A DNA stretch of 64,000 nt, from assembly GCF_036570325.1 (NCBI RefSeq), contig NZ_DATCYK010000028.1, positions 11,526 through 75,525 of the forward strand, in the 5' to 3' direction. The notes beneath the pieces are model-generated. The model did no database searches. It was not told where the DNA came from and was given only the letters and a program-made list of their open reading frames with translations. The stretch comes from Prevotella sp. Lineage in GTDB: Bacteria; Bacteroidota; Bacteroidia; Bacteroidales; Bacteroidaceae. Shown one piece after another: positions 23,884 through 37,692 of the stretch. The translations under genes and the position numbers were made by a program. Each line of letters begins with the position of its first letter. The stretch's first letter is position 1.

Positions 23884-23983
23884 TGTTTATGATTGAGTTA
23901 TAATTGTTTCGTTTGACAGAAGCGTTGTCATGGATGCAAAGATACATATTATAAATGAGAAAACATCGCGGCCCGAATACAAA

Positions 23984-24015
23984 AAATTGGGCAGATTTTC
24001 ACAAATCCGCCCAAT
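23984..24015 (-). terminator. Terminator downstream of smalltalk peptide
   Basis: A-run then ttgggcaga-loop-tccgcccaa imperfect stem. Confidence 0.55.
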
Positions 24016-24072
24016 CCGTCAGTAATCATCTGTGTTGACTGTGGGGGCCTGCCCTCCGGCGGCCGCCGCGCT

Positions 24073-24180
24073 TCATTCGTTTGTCATGCTGTCGGCGCCC
24101 AAGGCCCCGAGCAGTGCCGTCGCCACGGCAATGATGACTTTAAAGAGTATTTTCCATGGTGTCAGATTCACTTGAGCCAT
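24073..24180 (-). CDS. smalltalk-family small membrane peptide, 35 aa (absent from ORF track)
   Basis: hand translation MAQVNLTPWKILFKVIIAVATALLGALGADSMTNE; ATG overlaps the TAA of the HU-like gene; matches the W-K-x-I-x-K-x-I-I-A-V-A-T-A-x-x-G-A-L-G pattern recalled for the family. Confidence 0.85.
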   Translation of the reverse strand: MAQVNLTPWKILFKVIIAVATALLGALGADSMTNE

Positions 24181-24605
24181 TAGTTACCTCCTTCCTCGCC
24201 GCTTGTGGCCGAGCCCGAGGGCTTGGTCGTGGTGGTCTTGTCGCCCTTCTTGCCGCTGGTGTACTCATCGGCCTCGGTAAACTCAACGCCGTGGAGCAAT
24301 GCCCGCTTACGGGCGTGGCTGGAACGGTCGACGGTGAGCTCGGGCTGGAAGAGCACATGCACGTTGCGAAGGTGCTTCGTGATGGTGAAATCCTTGGCTG
24401 TTTCGGCGGCACGGGTGGAGATTCCGATCTTGAAGGTGCCCAGTCCGTTGAGCTTAATGCGCATCGACTGCTGGAGCATGTCGGTCATCACCTCGGTCAG
24501 TTGGTTGGTCTCGACCACTCCCTTGTGGGTGGCGCGGGCGAACCACTTGCCCTTTGTCTTACTCTCCTTGCGGTTGTCCTGATACATTTTGTAATTTACT
24601 GCCAT
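24180..24605 (-). CDS. HU/IHF-related DNA-binding protein (Bacteroidetes type)
   Basis: KWFARA, IKLNGLGTFKIGIS, VLFQPE, low-complexity G/T/S tail. Confidence 0.85.
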   Translation of the reverse strand: MAVNYKMYQDNRKESKTKGKWFARATHKGVVETNQLTEVMTDMLQQSMRIKLNGLGTFKIGISTRAAETAKDFTITKHLRNVHVLFQPELTVDRSSHARKRALLHGVEFTEADEYTSGKKGDKTTTTKPSGSATSGEEGGN

Positions 24606-24711
24606 AATTGTTTGTGTTTTTTGGTTAATAATTGGTTTGTTGTTTGTTGATAATATGTAAGCCTACAATTTTCTTTTTCTTTCGTCGCCGATGGTTGCCC
24701 CGGGCCGGCGG

Positions 24712-25167
24712 TCATGCCGGCATGTAGTAGGGAATCATGATTTGTCGGTTGTGGCCTTCGCGGTAGCTCACGTGTATCCACTCGGCGCCCTGCAGGTTGT
24801 GCTCAAAGAGGAGCTGGTCGTAGTCCAAGGTCATGAAGATGAACTCCAGCATTTCTATGCCTTTGGCCCGTGAGGGGATGTGGATGTCGCAGGCCTCGCC
24901 GAAGATGTGCTGCGAGTGGGTGGCCCCTCCCACCATGCGGTTGAGCCATTCGGAGCGGTAGCCGCTGGTGACGCGGATGGGGCCAAACTCCTTTCGGAGG
25001 GGTTCGAGCACCTTGGTGCAGAGCCGTCGCAGGTTGTGTACTGCCTCGGGTGAGGGCGTGTTGTCGACGTGGTACCGGCGGGCCGTGGCCGAGCGGGTCA
25101 TCTCCTCGAGGGTGAAATGGGGCGTCAGCCGCAGCCGGTCGCCGTTGGTTGGGTTGTGTGTTTTCAT
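24712..25167 (-). CDS. Peptidase M15 (Zn D-Ala-D-Ala carboxypeptidase / endolysin-like)
   Basis: HFTLEEM, SGYRS, SQHIFGEACD, WIHVS; no signal peptide. Confidence 0.88.
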   Translation of the reverse strand: MKTHNPTNGDRLRLTPHFTLEEMTRSATARRYHVDNTPSPEAVHNLRRLCTKVLEPLRKEFGPIRVTSGYRSEWLNRMVGGATHSQHIFGEACDIHIPSRAKGIEMLEFIFMTLDYDQLLFEHNLQGAEWIHVSYREGHNRQIMIPYYMPA

Positions 25168-25182
25168 GGTAATGGGGGTTTT

Positions 25183-25396
25183 GGTTGGTGGTTGGGGAGG
25201 TTTTAGTTGGCAGTTGGGGAGTTGGGGGGATGAATGGTTAGCCGGGATTGGTGAGGGGTGGTAGTTGGGGGGATGAATGGTTAGTTGTTATTGGTTGAGG
25301 GTGAGTAGTTGGGGGGATGAATGGTTAGTTTTGTTTTTGCTCCTTCTATTTGCCTCAGCCCGGTCTGATTAGTCCGACTGGTCCGACTATTCCGAT
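25183..25396. repeat. Family B G-rich repeats (43-44-bp period) plus family A array
   Basis: three agttggggggatgaatggttag copies spaced 43 and 44 bp; cggtctgattagtccgactggtccgact. Confidence 0.8.
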
Positions 25397-25611
25397 AGCC
25401 TTAACAGCTCTCTGCCATCAACTGATTAACTTCTTTACTTATATCTTTCTAATGATGTGTGTTTCAATATTTACGATTTGGTTTTGTTACTTTCAACGAT
25501 GCAAAGATAAGGAGGTTTTTAAGGGTGGCCAAGGAGGTGGGCGATACACTTGTGCCTACACTGCCTCGACATTCCTGAAACGGCTGCTTCCGCGGGCCAC
25601 GGGCCAGCTCC

Positions 25612-26046
25612 TCACGCCCTGCTGACCAATTGGCGGCGTGGATCGAGGCCGTTGATTTTCATGAGGACCCAGCGATCGAGCAGCGAGCTCTGGCGCATCG
25701 ACTTGCGCATTTTGGCCCGATAGGCATACGACCGTGGATTGCGGGGCACGGGCTTCACCAGCCTGCGACACACCATTTCGACCATGTAGGCAAAGGTTAG
25801 GTCGCACCCGCGGGCGTCCTTCACGTCGCACACCGTGTAAACATCGCTCACCAGCTCCACGAGGTCGGTCGTGGTGCTCTGCCAACGCAGGCTGCCCCCG
25901 TCGCCACCATCAATGAGTTCCATCACGAATTGCTGCATTTCCTGCATCGCTTCCTCCCGAAGGGGTCTGAGTTCTGATTTCCTGAAAGTCTGTATGTGCC
26001 CCTGATACATCAATTTTACGTTTGTTTCTTCCATTTCTCTATTCAA
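25612..26046 (-). CDS. Hypothetical protein resembling the RteC C-terminal domain
   Basis: LRWQSTTTDLVELV and RKSMRQSSLLDR resemble RteC W-T-G-S-K-x-D-L-x-E-L and R-K...F-L-D motifs (from memory); promoter box at 26081-26088. Confidence 0.5.
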   Translation of the reverse strand: MNREMEETNVKLMYQGHIQTFRKSELRPLREEAMQEMQQFVMELIDGGDGGSLRWQSTTTDLVELVSDVYTVCDVKDARGCDLTFAYMVEMVCRRLVKPVPRNPRSYAYRAKMRKSMRQSSLLDRWVLMKINGLDPRRQLVSRA

Positions 26047-36779: not shown

Positions 36780-37310
36780 AATGGAATAGAATCATTCTTT
36801 TCATGCGATGTATATAATCCTCTTACCTGATATAATTTATCTTTTCTCCTATTATATATAATAAGGTAAACAGCCCACACCCCCACGCCTCAATCGTTTT
36901 CCCCATCTTCCGAGTTATCCACAAAAAGTGTGGATAACCCTGTTGAAAACCTTCTCATAAGCCCGTTGATAACTTGGTGCATATCCACACCCATCAGGTC
37001 GGAGGGCCGTCACCGTGGATATCCACAGCTTTATCCCGCGGTATTCATTGAGTTTTCAACCGTTTTTCAGCCAAAAAAGTTATCAACTTATCAACGCTTC
37101 GGGATTGTCCCCATTATTGTGGAAAACCATTCCAACCCATTGATTATCACTCAATAGATATTGCTCCAAGCAGTGGAAAGCCCTTTCTCCCGTGTTAATA
37201 GTTAAACTACCAAATTTTTACTCCTAAAGTTATGAACATATCCACAGCCTATCATCTTACTCTTTTTTTTATTCTTTAAAGAAAGAAAAGTAAATAAGAT
37301 AATAATGAGT
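36780..37310. other. Probable chromosomal replication origin (oriC)
   Basis: perfect DnaA boxes TTATCCACA 36915-36923 and TGTGGATAA 36929-36937; near-matches at 36964, 36981, 37014/37019, 37031, 37080, 37088, 37118, 37238; AT-rich tracts on both sides; gene-free. Confidence 0.8.
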
Positions 37311-37322
37311 TGGGGAGAAATG

Positions 37323-37455
37323 GGTTGGTGGTTGGGAAGTTGGGGGGATGAATGGTTTGATAATAAGGTTGGTGGTTGGGAGGTTGGGGGGATGAATAGT
37401 TTGAGAATAAGGTTGGTGGTTGGGAGGTTGAGGGGATGAATAATTTGTTGAGAAG
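37323..37455 (+). repeat. Three tandem 44-bp G-rich units (family B)
   Basis: ggttggtggttggga starts at 37323, 37367 and 37411. Confidence 0.9.
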
Positions 37456-37490
37456 GTGATGAGTTGTAGGTTTTGCGGCTTTTGCCGTAA

Positions 37491-37692
37491 CGGTCTGATT
37501 AGTCTGACTGGTCCGACTTGTCTGATTATCCCCCGCCATTAAATAAAGTCTCTGCCAATCTCCGCCAGATTATCCCCGAAGTAAAAATAAAGTTTCTGCC
37601 AATCTTCATCTGTTAAAAGCTATGCAATCATCAGGTCAAAGGCCCACTTCGGCCCGGTCAATCGCCCACTTCGGCCCGGTCAATCGCCCACT
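37491..37692. repeat. Family A array, 44-bp-spaced duplication and 22-bp tandem repeat
   Basis: gattatcccc..taaagt(c/t)tctgccaatct at 37524 and 37568; cccacttcggcccggtcaatcg x2.3 from 37643. Confidence 0.8.

What the first reader, a model, noticed from the sequence alone, without database searches (positions are those of the whole stretch)
24073..25167. smalltalk peptide + HU-like protein + M15 peptidase: possible domesticated lysis/DNA-release module
Seen: a 35-aa hydrophobic peptide missed by the ORF track, translationally coupled (TAATG) to an HU-like gene, downstream of a signal-less M15 peptidase. The unit has a promoter box at 25502-25509 and its own terminator. Known: M15 enzymes serve as phage endolysins and need a holin to reach the wall; smalltalk/HU/amidase clusters recur in Bacteroidales without a known function. 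Inference: the peptide is a holin-like partner, and the module may drive subpopulation lysis, eDNA or vesicle release. No phage structural genes are present.
Basis: partly seen in the sequence, partly recalled or inferred. Interest (0 to 1): 0.6.

Follow-up and report, generated by a model that had tools for sequence, protein, structure and literature searches.

The report
Cut-down HU–smalltalk–lysin cassette
The flagged genes are a real but trimmed copy of a gene cassette common in gut Bacteroidaceae (a phage-type cell-wall enzyme, an HU-like DNA binder and the 35-residue 'smalltalk' membrane peptide). Relatives of the peptide sit beside the same enzyme in tiny bacterial viruses, which makes a role in cell lysis plausible but still unproven.

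Summary
Observation confirmed. On the minus strand lie a Peptidase_M15_3 gene (24712-25167), an HU-HIG gene (24180-24605) and a smalltalk/DUF6486 gene (24073-24180, TAATG overlap), with a TAnnTTTG box at 25502-25509 and a hairpin plus T-run at 24017-23984. The flanks are housekeeping genes (leuS, rnr).

This is not a new system. It is a reduced copy of the HU/smalltalk/wall-hydrolase neighbourhood described by Sberro et al. and, as 'T7-lysozyme phage blocks', by Xu et al. 2007. This scan has met the cassette several times on other DNA.

- The usual amidase is replaced here by a phage-endolysin-type M15 enzyme.
- The primase-helicase genes are missing.
- The HU gene of this assembly carries a private 66-nt in-frame deletion.
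- The module sits upstream of leuS in only 3 of 31 genomes of the genus.

The holin idea is partly supported. All the hydrolases are signal-less and packed into one operon with smalltalk. Six Microviridae records carry smalltalk-like peptides, two of them above Pfam's cut-off, and three of the six have an M15 peptidase next to or near the peptide. Against it, smalltalk's constant partner is HU, it looks like a cleavable signal or lipoprotein signal peptide rather than a holin, and many copies have no hydrolase nearby.

The parts
24073..24180 (-). smalltalk peptide (DUF6486 / NF033879), 35 aa. It belongs to the Cys-less class, with tail ADS|MTNE. Predicted N-in/C-out single-pass helix, or a cleavable signal-like peptide.
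   Evidence: HMM scores above the cut-offs; alignment of 59 copies; tail classes; dN/dS about 0.1 against G023
24180..24605 (-). HU-HIG family gene with a Gly/Ser/Thr-rich tail. In this assembly it is an allele with a 66-nt in-frame deletion, with the junction near 24487-24500. The deletion removes helix 1 and the start of helix 2 of the HU body.
   Evidence: Pfam profile covered 58-114 here against 1-117 in the orthologues; alignments; fold of the G023 orthologue: helices 33-43 and 48-67; tables 7-8 (three DNA contigs and one RNA-library contig carry 66 extra bases)
24712..25167 (-). Signal-less LAS-type zinc peptidase (Peptidase_M15_3) of phage-endolysin type. Predicted zinc ligands H87, D94 and H132, and R71, are conserved.
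   Evidence: 44-48% identity to crAss-like and Bacteroides phage endolysins; motif alignment to 1LBU; invariant residues; model pLDDT 84, best PDB match 1lbu; no hydrophobic N-terminus
25167..25346 (.). Repeat-rich 5' leader of the M15 gene: a 22-nt unit twice and a 43-nt unit three times. Copy number differs between strains.
   Evidence: repeats; tables 4-5 (22 bases left out; skips of 43 and 65 bases in other metagenome contigs)
25370..25395 (.). Short array of a 9-nt unit (TAGTCCGAC, 2.9 copies) in the same leader. Related arrays are dispersed in the contig.
   Evidence: (blastn hits of the leader elsewhere in C28 and other contigs)
25502..25509 (-). TATCTTTG, a match to the Bacteroidetes -7 promoter consensus TAnnTTTG, 335 nt upstream of the M15 start. 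No such box lies between M15 and HU.
   Evidence: pattern only; 35 matches in the window against 25 expected by chance
25612..26046 (-). 144-aa protein of unknown function that travels with the M15 gene in related cassettes. There is a weak lead to RteC-like regulators.
   Evidence: homologues directly upstream of M15 in G013 and G159, and in G001; Atlas lead, RteC on 11% of one cluster; no family hit
23984..24017 (-). Terminator-like hairpin (15 pairs, loop of 4) followed by a T-run, 56 nt after the smalltalk stop. The leuS promoter box TATCTTTG follows at 23937-23944.

Best explanation
The stretch is one operon, orf144 / leader / M15 lysin / HU-HIG / smalltalk. It is a trimmed, probably immobile copy of a phage- or satellite-derived cassette that is widespread and multi-copy in GTDB Bacteroidaceae.

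Full copies add a primase-helicase, a replication initiator, DUF4248 and, in at least one genome, a tyrosine integrase. They carry either a T7-lysozyme-type amidase or, as here, an M15 endolysin.

Shown:
- The identity of the parts.
- That HU followed by smalltalk is the invariant core.
- That the lysins have no signal peptide.
- That the two lysin types replace each other.
- That smalltalk homologues occur in microviruses beside M15 peptidases.

Inferred mechanism:
- The lysin accumulates in the cytoplasm.
- Smalltalk enters the inner membrane N-in/C-out like a signal peptide. Its Ala/Gly-rich helix is the active part. In about half of the family it is probably processed at a lipobox; here it may be cut at an Ala-x-Ser site or not cut at all.
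- Smalltalk supplies the membrane step that gives the lysin access to the wall, or it causes lysis by itself.
- HU-HIG, whose gene here overlaps the smalltalk start (TAATG), serves the element's DNA (origin or recombination architecture). How it ties the membrane step to that DNA is unknown.

In this assembly the HU allele is internally deleted, so this copy may be partly disabled.
For: - Family assignments.
- HU followed by smalltalk in 53 of 59 loci, with otherwise unrelated neighbours.
- Full cassette parts: BT4734_N+VapE, DUF3987+PriCT, Toprim+DnaB, Lin1244_N, DUF4248 and Amidase_2 by Pfam, with PHROG classes for the hydrolases and replication proteins (none for DUF4248).
- In five complete Bacteroides-like genomes, 12-13 of 20 Amidase_2 hits lie within about 3 kb of a smalltalk gene. 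Most of the rest lie within a few kb of a DUF4248 and/or HU-HIG gene.
- In the window's genus, M15_3 lies 0.5-10 kb upstream of HU-smalltalk in 10 of 12 cases.
- G159 holds five copies of an element longer than 14 kb, in the order orf144-like, M15, primase-helicases, HU, smalltalk, integrase.
- Smalltalk-amidase spacing is -1 to +19 nt in several loci.
- All 15 hydrolases lack a hydrophobic N-terminus.
- Six Microviridae records carry smalltalk-like peptides. Pfam DUF6486 scores are 39.9 and 24.2 bits (above the cut-off) in two of them and 17.4 in a third. An M15 peptidase overlaps or lies within 0.5 kb in three of the six.
- Purifying selection on all three genes.
- RNA-library contigs cover parts of the HU and M15 genes: (weak).
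Against: - No lysis or membrane phenotype has been measured for any family member.
- Smalltalk has no PHROG or holin-family match. It has no charged C-terminal domain and is half the size of typical holins.
- It pairs with HU far more constantly than with a hydrolase. In the 59 sampled loci only 15 had a hydrolase within about 6 kb.
- HU-HIG, which has no obvious place in a lysis cassette, has no PHROG match and only one weak tblastn hit in the phage collection, in an unverified fecal contig.
- The IMG/VR hits are host flank beside a Mu-like prophage.
- One complete and two partial microvirus records carry the peptide without a recognisable lysin. That fits single-gene lysis but also other roles, such as superinfection exclusion.
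- The window's HU allele is damaged, and the MAG is heterogeneous in G+C.
Confidence: 0.45

Rival explanations
1. Smalltalk is the membrane partner or anchor of HU-HIG and has no direct role in lysis. The two are made together, and the peptide holds the HU protein, with the DNA it binds, at the inner membrane. This would be a split version of HU proteins that carry their own transmembrane segment.
For: - HU followed by smalltalk is the invariant pair, with start/stop overlap or short gaps.
- The smalltalk-linked HU-HIG subclade has a disordered Gly/Ser/acidic tail ending just before the peptide gene.
- Burroughs et al. 2017 (PMC5499826) describe bacterial HU-CCDC81 proteins fused to a disordered segment, a TM region and SPOR or LysM wall-binding domains.
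Against: - No HU-smalltalk fusion was found. The long open frames turned out to be non-coding read-through.
- Microviruses carry smalltalk without any HU.
- This reading does not explain why signal-less lysins of two different folds sit in the operon.
Confidence: 0.2
2. Smalltalk is a precursor, and the product matters rather than the helix. One option is a lipidated micro-peptide of 2-9 residues left after lipoprotein processing. The other is a fragment of the released signal peptide that acts as a cell-to-cell or host signal (the 'crosstalk' idea of Sberro et al.).
For: - 30 of 56 genomic copies and 131 of 146 top database hits have Cys three residues after the conserved Gly. In those, -3 is V/L/I and -1 is S/A, which is a lipobox.
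- Cys-less copies have small residues at -3 and -1, which resembles a signal peptidase I site.
- A Prevotella subgroup has a conserved post-Cys tail, MGHGP followed by I/F/L.
- Sberro et al. proposed crosstalk.
Against: - Half of the genomic copies, including this window's, lack the Cys. The most conserved positions (A22, G28) lie in the helix, not the tail.
- The link to lysins and the presence in microviruses are not explained.
- No processing data exist.
Confidence: 0.15
3. In this genome the unit is a decaying remnant with no current function: a leftover of an element that lost its replication genes and is now losing HU.
For: - There are no primase, DUF4248 or integrase genes here.
- The HU gene has a private 66-nt deletion that removes helix 1 and part of helix 2.
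- The module is present upstream of leuS in only 3 of 31 species.
- The genome bin holds a single copy.
Against: - All three frames are open.
- dN/dS is about 0.1 against G023 for each gene.
- The strain variants within HU are 8 of 9 at third codon positions (table 3).
- The catalytic residues of M15 are intact.
- Other strains keep full-length HU, and the deletion may be an assembly error at a 14-nt repeat.
Confidence: 0.15

Closest known systems
Small-protein family #350024 neighbourhood of Sberro et al. (bioRxiv 10.1101/494179; later NCBIfam NF033879 'smalltalk', Pfam DUF6486)
   Same: [quoted passage not shown] The window's peptide scores above both curated cut-offs.
   Different: The hydrolase here is an M15 zinc peptidase placed upstream of HU, not an N-acetylmuramoyl-L-alanine amidase downstream of the peptide. 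There is no VirE/primase gene. The HU allele is internally deleted.
'T7 lysozyme' phage blocks in or beside capsule (CPS) loci of gut Bacteroidetes (Xu et al. 2007, PMC1892571)
   Same: The same recurrent multi-copy cassette with a phage-type lysin and a few small genes. I saw Wzc, Wza and sugar-transferase genes beside several copies.
   Different: This copy is not at a capsule locus; it lies between leuS and rnr. It carries M15 in place of the T7-lysozyme homologue.
Phage holin-endolysin lysis cassettes, and single-gene lysis peptides of small phages (general knowledge, recalled, not tested here)
   Same: A signal-less endolysin-type enzyme is encoded in one operon with a small membrane peptide. 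Homologous peptides lie next to M15 peptidases in Microviridae genomes.
   Different: The peptide is 30-37 aa with a signal-peptide-like layout and no charged C-terminal domain. It has no PHROG or holin match. An HU gene is always interposed or adjacent in the bacterial copies.
Phage-satellite replication modules (PICI/SaPI pri-rep-ori, P4-like). The comparison comes from earlier notes of this scan and from PHROG classes.
   Same: Full copies carry primase-helicase and replication-initiator genes of phage type without capsid genes. One genome's copies also carry a tyrosine integrase and a cargo pair, AAA_21 plus RloB.
   Different: The window's copy has none of these genes. Most copies lack an integrase. 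Satellites are not known for an HU-plus-micro-peptide pair.
HU-HIG clade, and TM-bearing HU-CCDC81 proteins (Burroughs et al. 2017, PMC5499826)
   Same: The HU gene matches PF18291, and the fold of the orthologue matches HU/IHF and 4FMR. It belongs to the Gly-rich-tail subclade, which shows lineage-specific expansion.
   Different: That paper reported almost no conserved operon partners for HU-HIG. For this subclade the smalltalk gene is such a partner. The TM segment is a separate gene, not a fusion.

Membership tests
smalltalk (NCBIfam NF033879 / Pfam PF20096 DUF6486) | Score above the curated HMM cut-offs | tested here: met
   45.7 bits against 24.7, and 46.7 bits against 22.7
smalltalk (NCBIfam NF033879 / Pfam PF20096 DUF6486) | Length of about 30-37 aa, encoded directly after an HU-family gene on the same strand | tested here: met
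   35 aa, with a TAATG overlap with the HU gene. The same layout occurs in 53 of 59 loci.
HU-HIG (Pfam PF18291) | Score above the gathering cut-off | tested here: met
   45.1 bits against 26.2
HU-HIG (Pfam PF18291) | Complete HU body (helix 1, helix 2, beta arms) | tested here: not met
   Only profile positions 58-114 are matched in the best stretch. 22 residues are missing compared with 40 homologues. They cover helix 33-43 and the start of helix 48-67 of the orthologue model. TIGR01201 HU_rel scores 43.6, below its cut-off of 68.6.
LAS zinc peptidase / Peptidase_M15_3 (PF08291), phage endolysin PHROG 894 | HMM score above the cut-off, and phage-endolysin homology | tested here: met
   62.5 bits against 23.2; PHROG 894 E 5e-34; 44-48% identity to annotated crAss-like endolysins
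LAS zinc peptidase / Peptidase_M15_3 (PF08291), phage endolysin PHROG 894 | Zinc-binding His, Asp and His, and the SxHxxGxAxD motif | tested here: met
   S85, H87, G90, A92 and D94 align to the motif of 1LBU. H87, D94, H132 and R71 are invariant in seven homologues. The fold matches 1lbu, MepA and VanY-like enzymes.
Holin (functional class of phage lysis proteins) | At least one transmembrane segment, encoded beside an endolysin without a signal peptide | tested here: met
   There is a hydrophobic stretch from W9 to A30 in the same operon as a signal-less M15. Adjacency or overlap with a lysin is seen in Bacteroides-type loci and in microviruses.
Holin (functional class of phage lysis proteins) | Charged hydrophilic C-terminal domain, length of about 60-150 aa, or a match to a known holin family | tested here: not met
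   The tail after the helix is 2-9 residues, the length is 30-37 aa, and no PHROG family matches.
Holin (functional class of phage lysis proteins) | Forms membrane lesions that release the endolysin at a set time | not testable with these tools
   This needs expression and membrane-potential or lysis assays.
Bacterial lipoprotein signal peptide (lipobox) | Basic n-region, hydrophobic h-region, then [LVI][ASTVI][GAS]C | tested here: not met
   The window's peptide has no Cys (tail ADS|MTNE). The feature is met in 30 of 56 genomic homologues and 131 of 146 top database hits.
Phage satellite / integrative element (PICI-like) | Integrase, primase-replicase and origin in the same unit | tested here: not met
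   None of these genes lies between leuS and rnr. They are present in fuller copies elsewhere.

The most novel reading that the evidence does not exclude
Smalltalk is a new class of minimal lysis effector of about 30 residues, built like a signal peptide. It is shared between Microviridae of Bacteroidales hosts and chromosomal phage-derived cassettes. It acts as the membrane partner of signal-less endolysins or as a single-gene lysis peptide. In the bacterial cassettes its synthesis is coupled to an HU-like protein, so that the state of the element's DNA sets when the cell opens.
Probability: 0.3. Interest if true: 0.75.

Novelty: new variant of a known kind. Interest (0 to 1): 0.45.

Why it matters
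Smalltalk is, by Sberro et al., among the most widespread small-protein families of mammalian gut bacteria, and its function is unknown. The cassette it belongs to occurs in up to 14 copies per genome in those sampled here, often beside capsule loci.

If the peptide is the membrane step of a lysis device, these cassettes would be a built-in, possibly phage- or stress-triggered, way for Bacteroidaceae to lyse part of a population. That would bear on phage defence, gene transfer and release of cell contents in the gut and rumen.

The window's copy adds two things. It shows that the lysin slot accepts an unrelated enzyme (M15 instead of amidase). Through the microvirus homologues, it also gives a simple and direct experimental test.

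Tried and rejected
- HU-smalltalk or lysin-smalltalk fusion proteins as 'Rosetta stone' evidence. The long open frames listed and the long proteins are non-coding read-through. The one exception, P0036, is smalltalk joined to a truncated amidase and looks like a deletion product.
- The search for related loci could not use the HU or smalltalk alignments, which were not conserved enough.
- With one Bacteroides-type HU, the search for related loci found four IMG/VR contigs, but there the cassette is host flank next to a Mu-like prophage.
- tblastn of the window's own peptide and of a Bacteroides Cys-less peptide against phages found nothing. Only a Prevotella-type query opened the microvirus lead.
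- The microvirus and small fecal contigs fetched first (L148-L151) have no smalltalk match.
- No PADLOC hit for any core part.
- No Rfam family in the leader, and no likeness of the leader to the 31.2-31.6 kb leader RNA noted earlier.
- The region is not compositionally odd within its contig.
- RNA evidence is thin: two short contigs of one metatranscriptome, covering parts of HU and M15 but not the peptide.
- Literature searches for DUF4248, DUF3987 or the gene combination gave nothing on function.
Full report
**What is in the window.** Reading the minus strand from 26046 down to 23984 gives the following.
- A 144-aa ORF at 25612-26046.
- A 444-nt spacer.
- A 151-aa gene at 24712-25167.
- A 141-aa gene at 24180-24605.
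- A 35-aa gene at 24073-24180, whose ATG shares its A with the TAA stop of the gene before it (TAATG).
- A hairpin of 15 pairs followed by a T-run at 24017-23984.

The 35-aa product is a smalltalk protein: NF033879 45.7 bits against a cut-off of 24.7, and DUF6486 46.7 bits against 22.7. The 141-aa product matches HU-HIG (PF18291, 45.1 bits). The 151-aa product matches Peptidase_M15_3 (62.5 bits). TATCTTTG, a match to the Bacteroidetes -7 box, lies at 25502-25509 (-). The same octamer precedes leuS at 23937-23944, and none lies between the M15 and HU genes. The pattern is only mildly more frequent than chance in the window, so it is a hint and nothing more. The flanks are housekeeping genes: LeuRS, YitT, Ham1 and PorZ on one side, RNase R and two OMP barrels on the other. 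The observation therefore stands.

**The M15 enzyme.**
- It matches PHROG 894 'endolysin' with E 5e-34.
- It is 44-48% identical to annotated endolysins of crAss-like phages, to proteins of Bacteroides phages and to peptidases of microviruses.
- The SxHxxGxAxD motif aligns with the zinc D-Ala-D-Ala carboxypeptidase 1LBU.
- R71, S85, H87, D94 and H132 are invariant in seven homologues.
- An AlphaFold model (pLDDT 84) finds 1lbu first and then MepA, VanY-like LdcB, hedgehog N-domains and Ply500, which is the LAS fold.
- Neither this protein nor any of the 14 other cassette hydrolases I collected has a hydrophobic N-terminus.

**The HU gene is damaged in this assembly.**
- Orthologues in G023 and G204, and all 40 homologues aligned, have 22 residues that the window lacks.
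- Pfam covers profile positions 1-117 in the orthologues, but only 58-114 in the best stretch here.
- In the model of the G023 protein (pLDDT 85; nearest structures HU, IHF and the HU-HIG protein 4FMR), the missing piece is helix 33-43 plus the start of helix 48-67.
- Three metagenome contigs of 96-98% identity, and one contig from an RNA library, all carry 66 extra bases at 24487-24500, where a 14-nt stretch fits both sides. The loose end of the RNA-library contig, reverse-complemented, reads KSDVVAVLTE, like the orthologues (tables 7 and 8).

The deletion is therefore private to this assembly. It is either a strain variant or a collapse at a short repeat.

**The unit is a trimmed copy of a common cassette.**
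- In the genome bin there is one smalltalk gene, one M15_3 gene and no Amidase_2 gene. The bin is heterogeneous in G+C: contig C28 has 54.6% and the 800-kb contig C56 has 43.3%.
- In relatives, smalltalk copy number runs from 0 to 14 per genome, and many copies sit at contig ends.
- I called genes in 59 loci from 30 genomes with a codon-usage score and clustered them. HU followed by smalltalk is the constant pair, seen in 53 loci. The exceptions are contig ends and a few odd contexts.
- The outer neighbours are unrelated housekeeping or accessory genes: IF-3, GlnRS, RecF, thioredoxins, a nucleoside symporter, Fic and a serpin.
- In Bacteroides-like genera the recurrent fuller form is a primase-helicase (BT4734_N+VapE, or DUF3987+PriCT, or Toprim+DnaB), sometimes Lin1244_N, DUF4248 on the opposite strand, HU, smalltalk and Amidase_2. 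It often lies beside Wzc, Wza and sugar-transferase genes.
- The hydrolases and replication proteins match PHROG lysis and replication families. HU, smalltalk and DUF4248 match none.
- In five complete genomes, 12-13 of 20 Amidase_2 hits lie within about 3 kb of a smalltalk gene. Most of the others lie within a few kb of a DUF4248 and/or HU-HIG gene.
- In the window's genus the lysin is M15_3 instead. It lies 0.5-10 kb upstream of HU-smalltalk in 10 of 12 cases.
- G159 has five copies of an element longer than 14 kb. Its order is an orf144-like gene, M15, a 357-aa gene, two primase-helicases, a cargo pair (AAA_21 plus RloB), HU, smalltalk and a tyrosine integrase.
- The window keeps only the two ends of that layout.
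- The module sits upstream of leuS in 3 of 31 genomes of the genus. Homology to the nearest genome without it stops at the leuS start.

**Prior knowledge.**
- Sberro et al. [quoted passage not shown] They proposed a role in cell-to-cell crosstalk.
- Xu et al. 2007 (PMC1892571) counted 'T7 lysozyme' phage blocks in and beside capsule loci: ten in B. thetaiotaomicron and five in B. vulgatus.
- Burroughs et al. 2017 (PMC5499826) defined HU-HIG, noted its lineage-specific expansions, and found almost no conserved operon partners. For the Gly-rich-tail subclade, smalltalk is such a partner.
- This scan has described the cassette on other genomes several times.

**What smalltalk looks like.**
- The family consensus is MKK..W..ILKVIIAVATAI.G.LG..SC, with A22 and G28 nearly invariant.
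- A profile search of 1.84 billion representatives found 1785 clusters at E <= 0.001.
- Among 56 genomic copies, 30 have Cys three residues after the conserved Gly. In those, -3 is V/L/I in 22 and -1 is S or A in all 30, which is a lipobox. The other 26 have no Cys, and A/S/G/T at -3 in 21 and A/S/T at -1 in 18, which is the pattern of a signal peptidase I site.
- Only 2-9 residues follow that position. Among the 146 best database hits, 131 have the Cys.
- The layout is thus that of a cleavable signal peptide with almost no cargo, inserted N-in/C-out.
- The window's copy is of the Cys-less class (ADS|MTNE).
- The helix is rich in Ala, Gly and Thr on two faces, which suits helix-helix packing. 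This last point is my inference.

**Is it the lysin's partner?** Evidence for:
- The three genes form one tight operon. In Bacteroides-type loci, smalltalk and the amidase overlap by one base or are 4-20 nt apart, and in two loci the amidase lies between HU and smalltalk.
- Two unrelated signal-less lysin folds fill the same slot.
They score 29-43 bits with my family profile. Pfam's own DUF6486 model gives 39.9 and 24.2 bits (above the cut-off) for two of them and 17.4 for a third.
- In MG945436 the peptide gene overlaps the end of the M15 peptidase gene. In OR148991 and Dulem virus 261 it lies about 0.5 kb from the M15 gene. None of these genomes has an HU gene.
- One complete microvirus (MG945262) and two partial ones have the peptide but no recognisable lysin. 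In a genome of six or so genes, that is compatible with the peptide causing lysis by itself.

Evidence against:
- Most bacterial copies have no hydrolase nearby (15 of 59 loci within about 6 kb).
- HU is the constant partner.
- The peptide has no match to known holin families and no holin-like C-terminal domain.
- Nothing has been measured.

**Selection and expression.**
- Against G023, pN/pS is 0.15/0.54 for M15, 0.18/0.68 for HU and 0.18/0.71 for smalltalk, so dN/dS is about 0.1-0.2, with dS near saturation.
- Of nine strain differences inside HU, eight are at third codon positions (table 3).
- One metatranscriptome holds short contigs over parts of HU and M15. DNA carry-over cannot be excluded, and the peptide is not covered.

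**Verdict.** This is a real operon and a real peptide. The system is a known but unexplained gene neighbourhood, here in a reduced M15-bearing variant with a damaged HU allele. The picture of a classical holin and of a domesticated eDNA or vesicle device is not supported by anything I could test. The rivals are an HU membrane anchor, a processed signalling or lipopeptide product, and a decaying remnant.

Noticed in passing
window 24487-24500 (inside the HU gene): A 66-nt in-frame deletion compared with three metagenome contigs, one RNA-library contig and all homologues. A 14-nt stretch fits both sides of the missing piece, so it may be slippage or an assembly collapse.
   Followed up: partly
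window 25167-25346: Tandem 22-nt and 43-nt G-rich (C-rich on the coding strand) repeats in the M15 leader. Other strains lack 22, 43 or 65 bases here, so the array varies in copy number.
   Followed up: partly
window 25370-25395, also near window 7798, 26307 and 37309-37526: A 9-nt TAGTCCGAC array in the leader.
   Followed up: no
G000 as a whole (contigs C28 and C56): The genome bin is heterogeneous in G+C: C28 has 54.6% while the 800-kb contig C56 has 43.3%. Copy counts for 'the genome' should therefore be read with care.
   Followed up: no
L097-L101 (G159, five places): Five copies at 85-97% identity of an element longer than 14 kb. It carries an orf144-like gene, M15, two primase-helicases, an AAA_21 plus RloB pair, HU, smalltalk and a tyrosine integrase. 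This looks like a still-mobile form of the cassette.
   Followed up: partly
P0036 (database protein, 124 aa): Smalltalk is joined in frame, just after its lipobox Cys, to the C-terminal two-thirds of an Amidase_2 domain. It is probably a deletion product, but it places the peptide as an N-terminal signal on a lysin.
   Followed up: no
P0002-P0097 (many Prevotella-type hits): The tail after the lipobox Cys is conserved as MGHGP followed by I, F or L in a large subgroup. This suggests that the few residues left after processing matter in that lineage.
   Followed up: no
L149 1414-1521 (MT837675.1, fecal phage-like contig): A 35-aa ORF with a basic N-terminus and a hydrophobic core starts at the last base of the M15 frame. 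It does not match the smalltalk profile, so it may be an analogous partner peptide.
   Followed up: no
L144-L147 (IMG/VR contigs): A Mu-like prophage end (CI-like repressor, MuA-like transposase, MuB-like protein) is inserted a few kb from a complete DUF4248 / HU / amidase / primase cassette. The 'viral' call for these contigs therefore includes host flank.
   Followed up: partly
L024 (G001:C91) 221-1031: An orf144-family frame lies directly upstream of a smalltalk gene at a contig start, with no HU frame between them.
   Followed up: no
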